Positions 1,139-6,204 of a DNA stretch of 64,000 nt are shown piece after piece. The position numbers and the translations under genes were made by a program. Origin of the DNA: an uncultured Gammaproteobacteria bacterium (GTDB taxonomy: Bacteria; Pseudomonadota; Gammaproteobacteria; JAKDMP01); the NCBI GenBank assembly GCA_964586925.1, contig CAZPJI010000002.1, positions 64,039 through 128,038 of the forward strand, given 5' to 3'. The notes under the pieces are model-generated. The model was not told the DNA's origin. It saw nothing but the letters and a program-made list of their open reading frames with translations, and made no database searches. Position 1 is the stretch's first letter; every line of letters starts with the position of its first letter.

Positions 1139-3265
1139 ATGCTGAAACGAATTCCCCTGGTACTGATTGCTTCGTTTGCTTTGCTGGCCGGCTGCGGCGT
1201 AAGCAGCAACAATCCGCCGCCGAGCAACAGTTTCCAAGCCGAGTTTTATATTACAAGCACTGTCAGCAATTATTCGACGGGCTTCAACATACCCTTCCCG
1301 AATGACCTCTACTTCAACGGCTCGACAGATGGAACAGTCAATATCCCAGGGCTAACCGATCCCAGCAATTACTCCGACCCGCTGGTTGCCATCAACGCGC
1401 TGGATGGATTCTCCAGCACCGCGCCCATCACGGAACAGTTCAACAAACCCATTGACCCCAAATCCCTTTCGGGCAACATCTATGTCTTCTCGGTCACCAC
1501 CGATCCGACCCAGGGTTACGCCGTCACCGGCGTCAACGGCCTGCTCACGGAAGGCACCGACTACACGCTGAGCGTCTCGAGTTCCGATCCCTCGGTGCTG
1601 GAAATCACGCCGACCGGCACCCTGGGCGCCGACAAATCCTTCATGGTCGTGATTACCAGCGGGGTCAAGGACACCAACGGCGACCCGGCCCAGGCATCGC
1701 CCAATTTCACCACGATCAAAGACGCCCTCGCGACCAACAAAGTCCCCTCCAACCCGACACTTGCAAGCGTCATGCCTCTGTTCGGGGCCATGCTCACCGC
1801 CGCCAACCAAGCCGCCGGTATCACGCCGGACAAAGTCAGCATGATCTGGACCTTCACCACACAGTCGGAGGGCGACGTACTCCAGAACATTGCCAAAAAC
1901 GCGCAGCCGGGCACGATGGCCCTTCAGGACCTGGGCAAGACCACCAAGGACATCAACCCACAGCTCCAGGGCTACGCCGAAGTCTTCGTCGGCAAGCTGA
2001 GCATCCCCTACTACGCCGGCATCCCTTCGAGCAGCGACCCGACCGCGCCGTTGACCAATTTCTGGCATGCCGCCAACGGCGGTTTCCTGACCCGCTACAA
2101 CACCCAGGCAGCGCCCACGGGCACGGTGACCGTGCCAGTCATCATGACGATCCCGGCTCAGGGCTCGCCCTATTTTGCGGGTGGCGGCACCTATCCCTCC
2201 GCCGGCTGGCCGGTGGCCATCTTCCAGCACGGCATCACCCGCGACCGGCTCGATGATCTGGCCGTGGCGGACACGTTCGCGCAGTTCGGCATTGCCACCA
2301 TCGCCATCGACCTGCCGCTGCACGGCGTGACCGACCCGAACAACCCGTTCTATGACAACCAGCTCGCCGCCGGCGCGCCCACCAATGTGACTACCGGAGT
2401 CGAGGAGCGCACGTTCAATCTCCCGGCCCCAGCGCCCGCAACGGGCATAGCGGCATCGGGCACGTACTTCATCAATCTCAACTATCTGCTCACCAGTCGC
2501 GACAATCTGCGCGAATCGGTGGCGGATCTCCTGCACCTGACCGAAACTCTGCCATCTGCGCAATTCGGCACGATCAACAGCGGAACCCCAACCATCGAGA
2601 AGTTCAACACGCTGGCCACCTACTACTCGAGCATTTCGCTGGGCTCGATCGTCGGCATTCCCTACCTGGCGGAAGTGCCCAACATCCCCGGCTACGGAAC
2701 CAGCATTGATGTACAGTCGGCCACGCTGTCGGAACCGGGCGGCAAGATCGCCTACCTGCTCCAGACCTCGCCGACCTTCAGCCCGGAGATCAACCAGGGC
2801 CTTGCCCAGATCGGCCTGGTTCCGGGAACGCTTGGCTATGACACCTTCTTCCAGGATGCCCAGACCGCAGTTGATTCGGGCGACCCGCTGAACTATGCCG
2901 CGACCGCAGCCGCCAACATACCGATCAACATGACCGAAGTCGTCGGCAGCTCCTCCAATCCGCCGGATCAGGTCGTGCCCAACTGGACCGAGGATCTCTT
3001 GGTCAATGCCATGGGCCTGAAGACCTACACCACGTCGACTGTAGACACCAGTGGTATCCGCGGCCTGGTGAAGTTCAACTCGGGTGTTCATGGATCGTTG
3101 CTGGATCCGACCTCCGATCCGCTGGTCACCCAGCAGATGCAGATCGAGATGGGCGTGTTCGCGGGCGGCTGCCTGCCTGGCAGCGTACCGGGCTGCCCAT
3201 CCACTGGCGGGCTGCCGAACGGACAGACCATGGACATCGCGATTCCGAGCGTCGTGGTGCCCTGA
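1139..3265 (+). CDS. Large secreted lipoprotein, ~708 aa. It may be a lipase/esterase-like hydrolase, but that function is not established
   Basis: The N-terminus MLKRIPLVLIASFALLAGCGV is a type II signal peptide with a lipobox (LAGC). A GGAGGA RBS sits 8 nt upstream of the ATG at 1139. The protein is long and Thr/Ser/Gly/Pro-rich. It has a weak SISLGS motif but no canonical GxSxG. A rho-independent terminator follows. The lipase assignment is only a guess. Confidence 0.55.
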   Translation: MLKRIPLVLIASFALLAGCGVSSNNPPPSNSFQAEFYITSTVSNYSTGFNIPFPNDLYFNGSTDGTVNIPGLTDPSNYSDPLVAINALDGFSSTAPITEQFNKPIDPKSLSGNIYVFSVTTDPTQGYAVTGVNGLLTEGTDYTLSVSSSDPSVLEITPTGTLGADKSFMVVITSGVKDTNGDPAQASPNFTTIKDALATNKVPSNPTLASVMPLFGAMLTAANQAAGITPDKVSMIWTFTTQSEGDVLQNIAKNAQPGTMALQDLGKTTKDINPQLQGYAEVFVGKLSIPYYAGIPSSSDPTAPLTNFWHAANGGFLTRYNTQAAPTGTVTVPVIMTIPAQGSPYFAGGGTYPSAGWPVAIFQHGITRDRLDDLAVADTFAQFGIATIAIDLPLHGVTDPNNPFYDNQLAAGAPTNVTTGVEERTFNLPAPAPATGIAASGTYFINLNYLLTSRDNLRESVADLLHLTETLPSAQFGTINSGTPTIEKFNTLATYYSSISLGSIVGIPYLAEVPNIPGYGTSIDVQSATLSEPGGKIAYLLQTSPTFSPEINQGLAQIGLVPGTLGYDTFFQDAQTAVDSGDPLNYAATAAANIPINMTEVVGSSSNPPDQVVPNWTEDLLVNAMGLKTYTTSTVDTSGIRGLVKFNSGVHGSLLDPTSDPLVTQQMQIEMGVFAGGCLPGSVPGCPSTGGLPNGQTMDIAIPSVVVP

Positions 3266-3411: not shown

Positions 3412-4308
3412 TTGACTGACAAGTTATCCATGCCTCCACGATTGTTCGAGCGGCTGCGAACCCGATTGAAAGCCGCGCCCCTCGTCGATACCGGCGAGAC
3501 CTTCGACGCGGAAACCCTTGAGACCCGGTTGCTCATGGCCGATGTCGGCGTTACTGCAACCGGCGATATCGTCGCGGCCGCGGAACAGGCCTCACGCGGC
3601 GGCGAATTGATCGCAACCGCCGTGGAGAAGCAAATCGAGACGCTTCTGGAACCGGCGGCAAAGCCACTCGAGATCAACGCCACCGCACGCCCGTTCGTGA
3701 TTCTGGTGACCGGCGTCAACGGCAGCGGCAAAACCACAAGCATCGCCAAACTGGCGCATCGCCTCAAGAGCGAAGGCCACGGCGTCATGCTGGCTGCCTG
3801 CGACACCTTCCGCGCGGCGGCCGTAGAGCAACTTGAACACTGGGGGGATCGCATCGGCGTGCCCGTGATGTCACAAGGTGCAGGAGCAGACCCGGCGGCC
3901 GTCGCCTTCGATGCCTGGCAAGCGGCCCACGCGCGCGGCATCGACGTGCTGATCGTAGACACGGCAGGCAGGCTGCACACGCAGGACCACCTCATGGCCG
4001 AGCTGGGCAAGATTCGCCGGGTGCTGGCGCGCCACGATCCGAATGCCCCCCACGAGACCTTACTGGTACTCGACGGCCACACGGGGCAAAATGCGCTCAT
4101 GCAGGCACGTGAATTTACCCGGGCGATAGGCACCACGGGACTGGTCATCACGAAGCTCGACGGCAGCGCCAAGGGCGGCGCCGTCGTGGCGATTACCCGT
4201 GAGTTGGAACTGCCCATCCGGTTCATCGGGCTCGGCGAAAGCATCGATGACCTCGAACCATTCAATGCCTCGGAATTCGCGGCCGCACTGGTGAAGGGCA
4301 AAACATGA
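3412..4308 (+). CDS. ftsY: Signal recognition particle receptor FtsY (short form lacking the acidic A-domain). Start is TTG at 3412, or ATG at 3430
   Basis: GVNGSGKTTSIAKLA (SRP GTPase P-loop), DTAGR, and the TKLDGSAKGG motif. ftsE-ftsX-rpoH lie downstream, matching the classic operon. Confidence 0.9.
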   Translation: MTDKLSMPPRLFERLRTRLKAAPLVDTGETFDAETLETRLLMADVGVTATGDIVAAAEQASRGGELIATAVEKQIETLLEPAAKPLEINATARPFVILVTGVNGSGKTTSIAKLAHRLKSEGHGVMLAACDTFRAAAVEQLEHWGDRIGVPVMSQGAGADPAAVAFDAWQAAHARGIDVLIVDTAGRLHTQDHLMAELGKIRRVLARHDPNAPHETLLVLDGHTGQNALMQAREFTRAIGTTGLVITKLDGSAKGGAVVAITRELELPIRFIGLGESIDDLEPFNASEFAAALVKGKT

Positions 4309-4982
4309 TCCGCTTCCTCGACGTCAGCAAGCGCTACCCGGGCGGGCACGAAGCCCTCAGCCACGTCAGTTTCGAACTCGAAGCCGGAGAAATGGTGTTC
4401 CTGACGGGCCATTCCGGCGCAGGCAAGTCGACCCTGCTCAAGCTGATTGCCCTGCTCGAACGGCCCACGCGCGGCCAGGTCCTGTTCGGCAAGCGCAACC
4501 TGGCCCACCTGCCGCGCTGGCGCATTCCTTATCACCGCCGCCACGTGGGTGTGGTCTTCCAGGACCATAAGCTGCTGACCGACCGCACCGTATTCGACAA
4601 CGTAGCTCTGCCGCTGGTGGTGACCGGGCACTCGCACCGGGAAATCGGCAAGCGTGTACGGGCCGCGCTCGACCAGGTGGATCTCCTCGACCGGGAAAAG
4701 GCCCGCCCGCTGGAGCTCTCTTCCGGCGAGCAGCAACGGGTCGGCATCGCGCGCGCCGTAGCGGGCAGGCCGCCGCTGCTGATCGCGGACGAACCGACCG
4801 GCAACTTGGATCCCGAGCTGTCGCTCGACATCATGCGTCTGTTCGAGCGCTTCAATTCAGTCGGCGTAACCGTGCTGATCGCCAGCCACGACCATGCCCT
4901 GCTCGCGCGCCTGGGCCACCGCGTGATGTCCCTGTCCCAGGGGGAATTAACCGCACCGAACCTGGTGACGTCCCATGGCTAA
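4305..4982 (+). CDS. ftsE: Cell division ABC transporter ATP-binding protein FtsE
   Basis: Walker A GHSGAGKST, ABC signature LSSGEQQRV, Walker B LLIADEPTGNLD. It overlaps the ftsY stop (ATGA) and lies upstream of ftsX. Confidence 0.9.
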   Translation: MIRFLDVSKRYPGGHEALSHVSFELEAGEMVFLTGHSGAGKSTLLKLIALLERPTRGQVLFGKRNLAHLPRWRIPYHRRHVGVVFQDHKLLTDRTVFDNVALPLVVTGHSHREIGKRVRAALDQVDLLDREKARPLELSSGEQQRVGIARAVAGRPPLLIADEPTGNLDPELSLDIMRLFERFNSVGVTVLIASHDHALLARLGHRVMSLSQGELTAPNLVTSHG

Positions 4983-4985
4983 GAA

Positions 4986-5258
4986 GGAACCCTTGATCTA
5001 TTCATACGCGGTCGCGCCGGTGTCATTGCGCGCGACTGGCAAGGAATGAGGAGTGAAGTTTGCTCATTGCAAATGAACGACGAATGACGCCGTCCAGGCG
5101 TGCGCAATGGCCCGGCCCCGAGGGGTTTGGCCCCAAAGGCCCGGCTGCTGCGTTACACCGGCTTGGCCATAGTCCCTGCTACGGCCCTGCGCCGCGCGCC
5201 TTGCATCCGGGCCTTTGGGACTCAAACGCGATTCGCGTATGAATAGATCAAGGGTTCC
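4986..5258. mobile_element. MITE-like or structured insert bounded by a perfect 25-bp terminal inverted repeat (ggaacccttgatctattcatacgcg ... cgcgtatgaatagatcaagggttcc)
   Basis: Read directly from the sequence. Positions 4986-5010 are the exact reverse complement of 5234-5258. The interior (~220 bp) is AT-richer than its surroundings. It contains nested inverted repeats: gtcgcgc/gcgcgac near 5011-5036 and ccaaaggcccgg/ccgggcctttgg. It separates ftsE and ftsX, which are normally adjacent or overlapping. Confidence 0.35.
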
Positions 5259-6204
5259 CGCCCCTCGTCCGCCCTCCCATCGTTTCCGGGCGCGGCTGCG
5301 GGCACTGCCGGCACAGCACGGACATGCCGCCTTTTCCAGCCTCGGGCGCCTGTGGCGCGGCCGCGGCGCCAGCCTGATGAGCATCGGCGTCGCCGCCATT
5401 GCCCTGGCGCTTCCGCTGGGACTGGCCGTACTGGTCCAGAATGCAACGGGCCTGACTGGCATTTCACGCGGTTCGGCCCGCATCTCCGTGTTTCTTCAAC
5501 CCGGTGCCAGTGACCAGACGCTCACCAAGACGCGTACCGCGGTCGATTCTTTGGCGGGTGTGCTTTCGGTCAAGACCATCACATCCGCGCAAGCCCTGAA
5601 CGAATTCAAGCACCTCGCCGCCTTTCACCAGGCGCTGACGGCGCTGCAGAGCAATCCGCTGCCGCCGGTGCTGGTCGTCACGCCCAGCGATTCGCGGGTC
5701 GGCTCGGTCGAGCAGCTGGCGGGCAAATTGAGAACGCTGTCCGGCGTCGACCAAGTGGTGACCGACAGCACCTGGATCGCGCGTCTCAACGCAATGCTCT
5801 CGATCGCCCGCCGCGCCGTCTGGGTCCTCGGGGCCCTGCTGGCCCTGGCCGTGCTACTGGTCATCGGCAACACCGTGCGGCTGGAAATCCAGAACCGGCG
5901 CACGGAGGTGGAAGTGCAGAAGCTGGTCGGGGCCACCAATGCCTTCGTGCGCCGCCCCTTCCTCTACGGAGGGTTGTGGTATGGGGCCTGGGGGGGCGTC
6001 ACGGCCTGGATCCTGGTCGAGATTGCGCTGGCCCTGCTTGCGGCACCGGTCGCCCGTCTGGCACATCTGTATTCCAGCTCGGCCCAACTCGATGGCCCCG
6101 GTTTCTCCGGCCTGGTGGGCATGATCGCGATGGGAGCCGCTCTCGGCTGGCTGGGCGCCCTGGTGGCCGTAGGACGCCATCTGCGAGCGATCGAACCCGG
6201 TTAG
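5239..6204 (+). CDS. ftsX: Cell division permease FtsX
   Basis: It follows ftsE. The basic N-terminus is followed by TM1 (IGVAAIALALPLGLAVLV), a periplasmic domain, and three C-terminal TM helices, which is the typical FtsX topology. The start ATG at 5239 lies inside the right arm of the 25-bp inverted repeat. Confidence 0.8.
   Translation: MNRSRVPAPRPPSHRFRARLRALPAQHGHAAFSSLGRLWRGRGASLMSIGVAAIALALPLGLAVLVQNATGLTGISRGSARISVFLQPGASDQTLTKTRTAVDSLAGVLSVKTITSAQALNEFKHLAAFHQALTALQSNPLPPVLVVTPSDSRVGSVEQLAGKLRTLSGVDQVVTDSTWIARLNAMLSIARRAVWVLGALLALAVLLVIGNTVRLEIQNRRTEVEVQKLVGATNAFVRRPFLYGGLWYGAWGGVTAWILVEIALALLAAPVARLAHLYSSSAQLDGPGFSGLVGMIAMGAALGWLGALVAVGRHLRAIEPG

What the first reader, a model, noticed from the sequence alone, without database searches (positions are those of the whole stretch)
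4986..5258. Perfect 25-bp terminal inverted repeat element inserted between ftsE and ftsX, with the ftsX start codon inside the right repeat
ftsE and ftsX are normally overlapping or adjacent and translationally coupled. Here a 273-bp segment separates them. It is bounded by GGAACCCTTGATCTATTCATACGCG and its exact reverse complement. Its core is AT-richer, with nested inverted repeats (gtcgcgc/gcgcgac and ccaaaggcccgg/ccgggcctttgg). The right-hand repeat supplies the ATG and first codons of ftsX (MNRSRV). This looks like a MITE-like insertion or an invertible/structured regulatory cassette in an essential division operon. It could uncouple or regulate ftsX expression.
Basis: seen in the sequence. 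Interest (0 to 1): 0.62.

Follow-up and report, generated by a model that had tools for sequence, protein, structure and literature searches.

The report
Mobile repeat inserted into ftsX start
A 273-bp mobile inverted-repeat element sits inside the fourth codon of the cell-division gene ftsX and now supplies its start codon, and it belongs to a large, apparently undescribed family that seems to carry its own ribosome-loading site so that genes downstream of it keep being translated.

Summary
A perfect 25-nt terminal inverted repeat (4986-5010 / 5234-5258) bounds a 273-bp segment, and the only conserved in-frame start for ftsX (ATG 5239) lies in the right repeat. It is a real insertion. Three close relatives have ftsE and ftsX overlapping by 8 nt with no spacer. 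Five independent assemblies carry the element, all in the same orientation. It lies inside ftsX, after ATGGCTAAGAA, not between the genes.

It belongs to a widespread family of ~270-bp elements (at least 119 loci; Pseudomonas, Halomonas, Azotobacter, Thiodiazotropha, Zetaproteobacteria and others). The family shares a Y-shaped fold supported by covariation, mostly TA flanks, and a near-invariant apical core: GAGGAG, 6 nt, TTG. The TTG frame is about four-fold depleted of stop codons up to the right end. The element is co-oriented with flanking operon genes 35:4. Its ORF often stops on or next to the downstream start codon.

In the window the chain is: ftsE, a 24-codon ORF from the old ftsX ATG, the core TTG ORF (60 codons), then TGA overlapping the new ftsX ATG (ATGA). 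A diverged relative keeps this chain.

Best reading: a fixed MITE acting as a translational relay. The relay is inferred, not shown. No sign of inversion, promoter or terminator. Rfam, Pfam, NCBIfam and literature string searches found nothing.

The parts
4305..4982 (+). ftsE (225 aa, ABC ATPase); stop TAA at 4980-4982
   Evidence: ORF list. The exact protein is on a Logan contig with a Pfam ABC_tran hit.
4975..4985 (+). Remnant of the ancestral ftsX start, ATGGCTAAGAA (ATG overlapping the last ftsE codons), cut off from the rest of ftsX by the insertion
   Evidence: Relatives without the element read cATGGGTAAG..., cATGGCTAAA..., cATGGCTAGG... with an 8-nt ftsE/ftsX overlap. Alignment A2.
4986..5258 (+). 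273-bp non-autonomous terminal-inverted-repeat element (MITE), core strand = + strand
   Evidence: Absent from L124, L125 and L141. Present in L001, L127, L128 and L129. Member of a family of at least 119 loci.
4986..5010 (+). Left terminal inverted repeat (5' strand of stem P1)
   Evidence: P1 pairs covary across the family.
5234..5258 (+). Right terminal inverted repeat (3' strand of stem P1); contains the ATGA stop/start overlap and ftsX codons 1-7
4975..5049 (+). ORFa: 24 codons opened by the old ftsX ATG (MAKKEPLIYSYAVAPVSLRATGKE*). It covers the left repeat. Its stop TGA (5047-5049) overlaps the Shine-Dalgarno-like GAGGAG.
   Evidence: In L129 the equivalent ORF (28 codons) ends 3 nt before the TTG.
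5012..5121 (+). Hairpin H1 (arms 5012-5039 / 5094-5121) with the conserved core at its apex
   Evidence: (I2). H1 pairs show many compensatory changes in 47 representatives.
5048..5083 (+). Family-defining core GAGGAGTGAAGTTTGCTCATTGCAAATGAACGACGA: Shine-Dalgarno-like GAGGAG 5048-5053, TTG 5060-5062, small hairpin TTTGC(5059-5063)/GCAAA(5069-5073)
   Evidence: GAGG, which lay outside the search pattern, is at least 90% conserved. The small hairpin shows GC/CG swaps.
5060..5242 (+). ORFb: TTG-initiated 60-codon ORF running through H1 3' arm, mini-hairpin, H2 and into the right repeat. Its stop TGA (5240-5242) overlaps ATG 5239 as ATGA.
   Evidence: The frame is kept in L129 by compensating +1/-1 indels. 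The family-wide frame is depleted of stop codons.
5116..5125 (+). Mini-hairpin CCCC-GA-GGGG between H1 and H2 (family: CCC-loop-GGG)
5132..5219 (+). Hairpin H2 (arms 5132-5148 / 5203-5219). Its apex is a decayed antisense copy of the core.
   Evidence: (I3).
5239..6204 (+). ftsX as now expressed (321 aa, MNRSRVPAPRPPSHRF...). Public gene calls start it at M47 (5377), giving 275 aa.

Best explanation
The segment is a non-autonomous terminal-inverted-repeat transposable element (MITE). It inserted 11 nt into ftsX in an ancestor of this lineage and has since been fixed.

It belongs to a widespread family of ~270-bp elements that fold, as a single strand, into a Y shape: a terminal stem P1 made of the two repeats, plus two hairpins. 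At the exposed apex of the first hairpin the family carries a near-invariant Shine-Dalgarno-like GAGGAG, then 6 nt, then TTG. The reading frame from that TTG is kept free of stop codons to the right end.

Proposed mechanism (inferred):
1. Ribosomes finishing ftsE re-start at the old ftsX ATG (4975).
2. They translate ORFa across the left repeat and stop at TGA 5047-5049, on top of the GAGGAG.
3. They re-start at TTG 5060 and translate ORFb through the rest of the structure, melting P1.
4. They terminate at TGA 5240-5242, which overlaps the new ftsX start (ATGA).

The result is that ftsX stays translationally coupled to ftsE despite a -167 kcal/mol structure. ftsX has acquired a new N-terminus (MNRSRVP) encoded by the right repeat.

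Shown: the insertion, family membership, the new start codon, conservation of the ORF chain in a diverged relative, family-wide stop depletion, and orientation bias.
Inferred: that ORFa and ORFb are translated and that this is what delivers ribosomes to ftsX.
For: Insertion:
- Empty sites with an 8-nt ftsE/ftsX overlap in L124, L125 and L141, whose FtsX is 89-91% identical.
- The element is present in five assemblies.
- Removing it restores an in-frame MAKNAPRPPSHRF.

New start:
- There is no ATG/GTG/TTG in frame between 5258 and M47.
- Codons 1-46 show 16 synonymous to 1 non-synonymous change against L129.
- ATG 5239 is conserved in L129; TTG 5215 is not.

Family:
- A core-pattern scan found at least 119 loci, several per genome.
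- Copies are ~265-275 bp with long terminal repeats.
- 70 of 86 consensus pairs show compensatory changes.
- TA lies on both flanks in 54 of 81 standard copies.

Relay:
- In the variable region only, the TTG frame has 14 stops in 57 representatives, against 59 and 66 in the other sense frames.
- In 47 representatives that are only 53% identical, it has 8 stops in 7 alignment columns against 44/15 and 44/20.
- The left half of the element is not depleted.
- The TTG-to-right-end distance is a multiple of 3 in 65 of 87 copies, including 9 of 12 longer variants.
- With flanking co-directional genes, orientation is ++ 35 against -- 4, p = 3e-7.
- The element ORF stops on or within a few nt of the downstream start in many loci. 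Examples: apaG|element|TAATG-apaH in L071 and L079; ATGA at murC in L111; L003, L046, L099 and L122.
- In the window and in L129 the ORFa/ORFb/ATGA chain is intact, and +1/-1 indels compensate within ORFb.
- The element differs by 7.4% between the window and L129, against 32-33% at four-fold sites of ftsE and ftsX.
- No Shine-Dalgarno sequence precedes ATG 5239, and no promoter-like site lies in the element.
Against: - There are no expression data. Translation of ORFa and ORFb is not demonstrated.
- The ORFb peptide is not conserved, and GC content shows no codon-position periodicity (0.625/0.641/0.614). Only stop avoidance argues for translation.
- The family sample was collected with a pattern that fixes the core, including TTG. 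Of five repeat-ascertained ~270-bp elements, three have a different apex. The relay module is therefore a subfamily trait.
- Flanking-gene strands came from a heuristic ORF caller that mis-called the window's own upstream gene.
- Low divergence of the element between orthologous sites could reflect independent or recent insertion rather than constraint. A relative with 97% identical ApaH lacks the apaG/apaH copy.
- This copy has no TA flanks and no visible target duplication. Its repeat variant was found nowhere else.
- No autonomous partner was found.
Confidence: 0.55

Rival explanations
1. A passive MITE. The element is an ordinary selfish insertion that happened to bring an ATG in its right repeat. 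ftsX is initiated there independently, or because the P1 stem brings the ftsE stop and the new ATG close together. The internal Shine-Dalgarno-like site, TTG and ORF have no role in host gene expression. They could be a relic of the parent transposase's translation start, or serve the element itself.
For: - Clear insertion polymorphism and family membership.
- The peptide is not conserved and shows no codon-position GC signal.
- Some family members have a different apex.
- MITEs fused to host ORFs are well known (PMC2229807, PMC10969869).
Against: - A four-fold stop depletion confined to one frame and to the part downstream of the TTG persists across representatives only 53% identical.
- Orientation bias is 35:4.
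- The ORF is phased to the right end, and stop/start overlaps with downstream genes recur.
- No long protein shares the ORF's N-terminus.
- ATG 5239 has no Shine-Dalgarno sequence and sits in a 25-bp stem.
Confidence: 0.27
2. An RNA-level regulator. The long perfect duplex and hairpins act mainly as an RNase III or RNase E processing site, or as an mRNA stabiliser. This would set the ftsE:ftsX ratio, as shown for Correia and ERIC elements. Translation through it would be secondary.
For: - A very stable fold.
- Covariation in all stems, including compensatory changes between orthologous copies.
- Orientation bias.
- Precedents for RNase III cleavage at Correia terminal repeats and orientation-dependent ERIC effects (PMC10969869, section 4.1).
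Against: - It does not explain frame-specific stop avoidance or the phasing of the ORF to downstream start codons.
- Cleavage in P1 would remove the only start codon region of an essential-operon gene.
- It is not exclusive of the relay model.
Confidence: 0.12
3. ORFb (or the family ORF) encodes a functional small protein.
For: A conserved N-terminal M-[VL]-I-[PA]-N-E-R-R-x-T and an open frame of ~60-64 codons.
Against: - The N-terminus was fixed by the search pattern.
- The rest is unconserved. Most window-versus-L129 differences are non-synonymous, and a frameshifted stretch is tolerated.
- No Pfam or NCBIfam hit.
- Only four small hypothetical proteins were found in 5.8 billion clusters.
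- No GC3 signal.
Confidence: 0.03
4. An invertible DNA switch or an assembly artefact.
For: Perfect inverted repeats could support inversion. Correia inversion has been reported (PMC10969869). Three public contigs end inside the element.
Against: - Same orientation and same junctions in five independent assemblies, including one about 33% diverged at silent sites.
- No recombinase gene among the flanking genes ftsY, ftsE, ftsX and rpoH.
- Contig breaks are what repeats shared with other family members would produce.
Confidence: 0.02

Closest known systems
RUP (repeat unit of pneumococcus), a MITE thought to be mobilised by IS630-Spn1
   Same: A small non-autonomous element with terminal inverted repeats. 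It inserts at TA, as inferred here from TA on both flanks in 54 of 81 standard copies and from the apaG/apaH junction. It is dispersed and multi-copy.
   Different: [quoted passage not shown] The present family is ~270 bp and Y-shaped, with a conserved apical Shine-Dalgarno-like site and TTG and one stop-depleted frame. No IS630-like partner was identified here.
Correia / NEMIS elements of Neisseria
   Same: Terminal-inverted-repeat elements next to genes. They are co-transcribed, form long hairpins, have orientation- and position-dependent effects on neighbouring genes, and some variants carry ORFs fused to host ORFs (PMC2229807, PMC10969869).
   Different: Known Correia functions are promoters, an IHF site and RNase III cleavage. 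There is no built-in ribosome-binding site or ORF phased to the end. There is no sequence similarity, and no promoter-like site was found in the window element.
ERIC/IRU (RU-1) enterobacterial repeats
   Same: Found inside operons, with orientation-dependent effects on flanking gene expression. They can carry ORFs and occur intragenically (PMC2759123, PMC10969869).
   Different: The ERIC effect is through RNase E and mRNA decay. The elements are 127 bp and unrelated in sequence. No translational re-initiation module has been described.
Rickettsia palindromic elements (RPE)
   Same: Palindromic mobile elements tolerated inside protein-coding genes, adding element-encoded residues to host proteins (PMC10969869). 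Here seven N-terminal residues of FtsX come from the right repeat.
   Different: RPEs insert in frame and are read through as part of the host protein. Here the host frame is interrupted (stop at 5047-5049) and the protein is re-started from the element.
Translational coupling by termination-reinitiation at overlapping stop/start codons (ATGA, TAATG) in bacterial operons
   Same: The junctions ORFb-TGA/ATG-ftsX (ATGA), element ORF/apaH (TAATG) and element ORF/murC (ATGA) have exactly this geometry. The uninserted ftsE/ftsX and apaG/apaH pairs are themselves overlapped.
   Different: In the known cases the upstream cistron is a host gene. Here it would be a non-conserved ORF carried by a mobile element.

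Membership tests
MITE (miniature inverted-repeat transposable element) | Small size (about 50-500 bp) with no transposase gene | tested here: met
   273 bp. The internal ORFs are 60 aa or shorter, with no Pfam or NCBIfam hit.
MITE (miniature inverted-repeat transposable element) | Terminal inverted repeats | tested here: met
   25/25 nt perfect. Family copies have repeats of 10-35 nt.
MITE (miniature inverted-repeat transposable element) | Presence/absence polymorphism at orthologous sites | tested here: met
   ftsE/ftsX is empty in L124, L125 and L141 and occupied in the window and L129. apaG/apaH is empty in L142, L144 and L145 and occupied in L071 and L079.
MITE (miniature inverted-repeat transposable element) | Dispersed multi-copy family | tested here: met
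Examples: 8 copies in one Halomonas assembly, 5 in MAG MFD03804.bin.2.106, 3 in a Longimicrobiales chromosome. The window's own repeat variant was seen only at this locus.
MITE (miniature inverted-repeat transposable element) | Target-site duplication | tested here: inconclusive
   Standard-repeat copies have TA on both flanks in 54 of 81 cases and on one flank in 21. L079 reads CAC-TA-[element]-TA-ATG, but the empty sites read TGATG, not TAATG. The window copy has AAGAA|...|CGCCC with no duplication.
MITE (miniature inverted-repeat transposable element) | Cognate autonomous insertion sequence with matching terminal repeats | tested here: not met
   No full-length element was found between repeat pairs in about 1 Mb of loci, near plasmid hits or through the ORF N-terminus. 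The search was shallow, so absence is not established.
IS630/Tc1-mariner-mobilised MITE | Insertion at TA (often CTAG) with TA duplication | tested here: inconclusive
   CTA...TAG flanks in 24 of 81 copies and TA...TA in 54 of 81. There is no clean empty-site proof. The window copy and the other variant-repeat copies (L046, L099, L122, L112) lack TA flanks.
IS630/Tc1-mariner-mobilised MITE | Terminal repeats matching those of an IS630-family insertion sequence | not testable with these tools
   No ISfinder-type library was available. Literature string searches for the repeat found nothing relevant.
Curated structured RNA family (Rfam) | Match to an Rfam covariance model | tested here: not met
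   No hit at E <= 1 on window 4500-5800. No gathering-score hit on 12 family loci.
Invertible DNA switch | Both orientations present in a population, and an associated recombinase | tested here: not met
   One orientation in five assemblies. The neighbouring genes are ftsY, ftsE, ftsX and rpoH.

The most novel reading that the evidence does not exclude
This is a class of MITE that has evolved a built-in translational relay. An exposed Shine-Dalgarno-like site plus TTG sits at the apex of its structure. A stop-free frame is phased so that the duplicated TA of the target (typically the TA of a host stop codon) becomes codon positions 1-2 at the right junction. The upstream gene therefore still stops (TA+G at the left junction). 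Ribosomes re-load inside the element, unzip it, and terminate on the original stop codon next to the downstream start. This would let the element colonise stop/start junctions of operons, including essential ones (ftsEX, murG-murC, apaGH), without polar effects. At ftsEX it would have become an indispensable part of ftsX expression.
Probability: 0.45. Interest if true: 0.8.

Novelty: new variant of a known kind. Interest (0 to 1): 0.62.

Why it matters
MITEs in bacteria are known to affect neighbours through promoters, IHF sites, RNase cleavage, gene disruption and in-frame fusions. A 2024 review lists these and mentions no ribosome-binding or coupling function (PMC10969869). A mobile element carrying its own re-initiation cassette would be a new way for selfish DNA to avoid harming operons. 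It would explain how a 273-bp, -167 kcal/mol structure can sit inside the start of an essential division gene.

Practical consequences:
- Public gene calls for this ftsX start 46 codons too late.
- The ~60-codon element ORFs are mostly unannotated.
- The family, which spans several phyla, appears to lack any model in Rfam, Pfam or NCBIfam.
- The module (structure plus apical Shine-Dalgarno site plus phased ORF) is directly testable with reporters. It could also serve as a natural insulator or coupler for synthetic operons.

Tried and rejected
- Rfam search of the window region (E <= 1) and of 12 family loci: no match.
- Exact 21-nt repeat search in species genomes: 0 hits. In JGI metagenomes: only the same locus in a relative.
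- Search for a full-length insertion sequence between repeat pairs in the fetched loci: the candidates were host genes, such as murG/murC and a flavoprotein. A repeat-only plasmid hit had no transposase nearby.
- Attempt to get a clean empty site for the P. aeruginosa plasmid copy: the second plasmid has an unrelated 88-bp spacer, so it was uninformative.
- Idea that other 275-aa FtsX calls mark further insertions: rejected. L137, L139 and L141 have no insertion, only late gene-caller starts.
- Idea that the whole element is one read-through ORF, like an RPE: rejected. The left half is not stop-depleted, and the host frame stops at 5047.
- Idea that the core is the start of a known transposase or small protein family: no Pfam or NCBIfam hit, and only four short hypothetical proteins in the protein collection.
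- Promoter and terminator scan: nothing on the + strand inside the element.
- Literature string searches for the repeat and core sequences: no relevant paper.
- TTG 5215 as the ftsX start: not conserved in L129.

Full report
**1.

GGAACCCTTGATCTATTCATACGCG lies at 4986-5010 and its exact reverse complement at 5234-5258. There are no other matches in the window with up to three mismatches, and none in 100 shuffles. The 273-bp segment follows the ftsE stop (TAA 4980-4982). It contains the in-frame ATG 5239 that opens a 321-codon ftsX ORF.

As RNA it folds at -167.4 kcal/mol, z = -9.1. The shape is a Y: the two terminal repeats form stem P1 around two hairpins, 5012-5039/5094-5121 and 5132-5148/5203-5219. 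The 'AT-richer core' is only a slight dip in GC.

**2. It is a true insertion, and it lies inside ftsX**

FtsX homologues 89-91% identical to the window protein begin MGKPKTPRPPSHRF, MAKHSHRF and MARSKTPRPPSHRF. On their contigs ftsE and ftsX overlap by 8 nt (cATGGnTAA/G) with no spacer (L124, L125, L141).

The window reads cATGGCTAAGAA | 273 bp | CGCCCCTCGTCCGCCCTCCCAT. The old ftsX ATG is therefore at 4975 and the element interrupts codon 4. Removing it gives an in-frame MAKNAPRPPSHRF. No target duplication is visible.

The same insertion, in the same orientation, is in a Logan contig, two JGI contigs and a metagenome contig from a diverged relative (L001, L127, L128, L129). It is not an artefact, and there is no sign of inversion. 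Three of those contigs end inside the element, as expected for a repeat.

**3. ftsX now starts in the right repeat**

Between the end of the element and Met47 there is no in-frame ATG, GTG or TTG. Yet residues 8-46 are conserved in all relatives. Between the window and L129, codons 1-46 differ by 16 synonymous changes and 1 non-synonymous change. ATG 5239 is conserved in L129, and its one change inside the repeat-encoded codons is synonymous. The upstream TTG 5215 is not conserved. Public gene calls begin at Met47 (P0003, 275 aa), which is very probably 46 codons too late.

**4. The element belongs to a large family**

- A BLAST search of plasmids hit only the centre of the element. The hits were ~270-bp intergenic elements of Pseudomonas, Azotobacter and Halomonas with different terminal repeats.
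They include many Gammaproteobacteria, Zetaproteobacteria, and MAGs labelled Longimicrobiales, Nitrospiria and Oceanithermus, with several copies per genome.
- Nearly all are 265-275 bp with long terminal repeats. Most read TA|GGG(C/T)CTGTT.... TA lies on both flanks in 54 of 81 and on one flank in 21.
- A few have other ends (GAGCCTA..., GAACCTACC..., GGGACCC...). The window's GGAACCCTTG... is one of these. Its closest relative is the copy in Spectribacter hydrogenoxidans (L112).
- RNAalifold on 47 representatives gives the same Y shape. 70 of 86 pairs show compensatory double changes.
- The right half is a diverged inverted copy of the left half. The apex of hairpin 2 is a decayed antisense core. 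One viral-contig copy has core-like sequences on both strands. Three of five repeat-ascertained copies have a different apex. The core-bearing elements are therefore a subfamily.
- Searches found nothing: Rfam, Pfam and NCBIfam on the element ORFs, and literature string searches.

**5. The core looks like a translation start, and the frame behind it is protected**

- The core is GAGGAG, then 6 nt, then TTG, at the poorly paired apex of hairpin 1. The GAGG part, which the search pattern did not fix, is at least 90% conserved.
- Outside the conserved core and terminal repeats, the TTG frame has 14 stop codons in 57 representatives, against 59 and 66 in the other sense frames.
- In the 47 aligned representatives, which are 53% identical in this region, it has 8 stops in 7 columns against 44 in 15 and 44 in 20.
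- The part upstream of the TTG is not depleted (49 against 37 and 34).
- The TTG-to-right-end distance is a multiple of three in 65 of 87 copies and in 9 of 12 longer variants. The terminal TA therefore occupies codon positions 1-2. In 24 of 57 representatives the ORF stops exactly at the right junction.
- There is no codon-position GC signal, and the peptide is not conserved. What is selected appears to be an open frame, not a protein.

**6. Context**

With the element masked and a heuristic gene caller, flanking co-directional genes run with the core strand in 35 cases and against it in 4, p = 3e-7 (compare). Many copies sit exactly between a stop codon and the next start codon.

- apaG/apaH. 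In two Pseudomonas species the element lies between the two genes as CAC-TA(A)-[element]-TAATG. The element ORF stops on TAA, which overlaps the apaH ATG. Relatives with 81-97% identical ApaH have the uninterrupted overlap CACTGATG.
- murC. In a high-GC MAG the element ORF ends in ATGA at murC.
- Variant-repeat copies L046, L099 and L122 have the upstream stop 0-9 nt before the left end. Their element ORF stops 1-15 nt before the downstream ATG.
- L003. On an annotated P. aeruginosa plasmid the ORF ends in TGATG at the annotated start of the next gene.

**7. The window copy**

The chain is:
- ftsE stop overlapping ATG 4975;
- ORFa, 24 codons across the left repeat, with stop TGA 5047-5049 overlapping GAGGAG;
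- TTG 5060;
- ORFb, 60 codons through the rest of the structure, with stop TGA 5240-5242 overlapping ATG 5239 (ATGA);
- ftsX.

L129 keeps every link. It carries an 8-nt duplication upstream of the TTG and compensating +1/-1 indels inside ORFb, which stays at 60 codons.

The element differs by 7.4% between the two, with no change in its first 54 nt. Four-fold sites of ftsX and ftsE differ by 33% and 32%. The apaG/apaH pair behaves alike: 10% against 32%, with compensatory changes in hairpin 1.

ATG 5239 has no Shine-Dalgarno sequence and lies in the 25-bp stem. The scan found no promoter-like or terminator-like site on the + strand within the element.

**8. Interpretation**

The well-supported part is this: a MITE of a widespread family inserted into codon 4 of ftsX, became fixed, and replaced the first residues and the start codon of ftsX.

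The mechanistic part is inferred. Translation is relayed through the element by termination-reinitiation (ORFa, then ORFb, then ftsX). This melts the structure and preserves coupling to ftsE. I put this at about 0.55.

Rivals:
- a passive MITE whose ORF features serve the element or are relics;
- an RNase-processing or stability element, not exclusive of the relay;
- a functional micro-protein;
- an invertible switch or artefact.

The first two remain possible. The last two are poorly supported.

**9. Caveats**

- The family sample was collected with a core pattern.
- Gene strands are heuristic, and the caller mis-called the window's own upstream gene.
- The slow divergence of orthologous copies could reflect recent or independent insertion. 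A 97%-identical ApaH relative lacks the element.
- The TA duplication is not proven by a clean empty site.
- No autonomous partner was found.
- The window's repeat variant is known only from this locus.

**10. Comparison with known elements**

The element works like, and qualifies as, a bacterial MITE. Closest known:
- RUP, for the TA/IS630-type ends.
- Correia and ERIC, for co-transcribed elements with orientation-dependent effects.
- RPE, for element-encoded residues in host proteins.

All are described in PMC2229807, PMC2759123 and PMC10969869. None of these, nor the 2024 review's list of MITE functions, includes a built-in ribosome-binding site and phased ORF acting in translational coupling. 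I therefore rate it a new variant of a known kind.

Noticed in passing
window 5377-6204 (public protein P0003): Public gene calls for this ftsX, and for several relatives without any insertion (L137, L139, L141), start at Met47 and give 275 aa. This drops a conserved 46-residue N-terminal segment, so it is a likely systematic start-site mis-annotation.
   Followed up: yes
L046 (Pseudomonas sp. BMS12), element at about 441-706 on the minus strand: The element sits between a GGAGG Shine-Dalgarno sequence and the ATG it presumably served (tgaGGAGGc|element|ctcATG), between two acyl-CoA dehydrogenase-like genes. The element ORF stops 15 nt before that ATG.
   Followed up: partly
L111 1189-1455 (MAG MFD02134.bin.3.167): A family copy lies between murG and murC. 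The murG frame runs five codons into the left repeat before stopping. The element ORF ends in ATGA on the murC start.
   Followed up: partly
L071 6475-6741 and L079 about 3560-3821 (two Pseudomonas species): The same apaG/apaH junction is occupied in two species that are 32% diverged at silent sites. It is empty in relatives with 97%, 92% and 81% identical ApaH. This implies precise loss, a target hot spot with independent insertions, or transfer by recombination.
   Followed up: partly
L133 935-1204 (IMG/VR contig): A copy with the standard terminal repeats carries core-like Shine-Dalgarno plus TTG modules on both strands. This suggests the ancestral element was symmetric and could work in either orientation.
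   Followed up: no
L100 3286-3606 (Ca. Thiodiazotropha MAG): A 321-bp composite or nested copy has a variant apex (GGAGTGCGGTGTAGCCGGTCTACA...) plus a reversed standard core inside it.
   Followed up: no
several loci (e.g. L130 about 3001-3038): Shorter elements of about 100-150 bp, and solo ends, carry the same GGG(C/T)CTGTT terminal repeats. The same presumed transposase may therefore mobilise more than one kind of MITE.
   Followed up: no
L022, L119, L121 (Longimicrobiales chromosome OZ245038.1); L074 (Nitrospiria MAG); L090 (Oceanithermus MAG): Near-canonical family copies occur in genomes labelled as non-proteobacterial phyla. This implies cross-phylum spread, or mis-binned contigs for the two short ones.
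   Followed up: no
alignment A3, columns 60-72 with 221-232 and 109-120 with 172-183: GGCAAGGCGCG is complementary to CGCGCCTTGCC, and GCAACGCCGCAT is complementary to ATGCGGCGTTGC. The apical flanks of the two hairpins could therefore pair with each other (alternative fold or kissing interaction), besides reflecting the inverted-duplication origin.
   Followed up: no
alignment A3, columns 141-151 (window 5116-5125): The mini-hairpin between H1 and H2 is CCC-loop-GGG with loops of the TTCG/TGCG/TACG or GAA/GCA/GGA type. These are extra-stable loop motifs in both RNA and DNA. It is uninformative on whether the structure acts as RNA or as single-stranded DNA.
   Followed up: no
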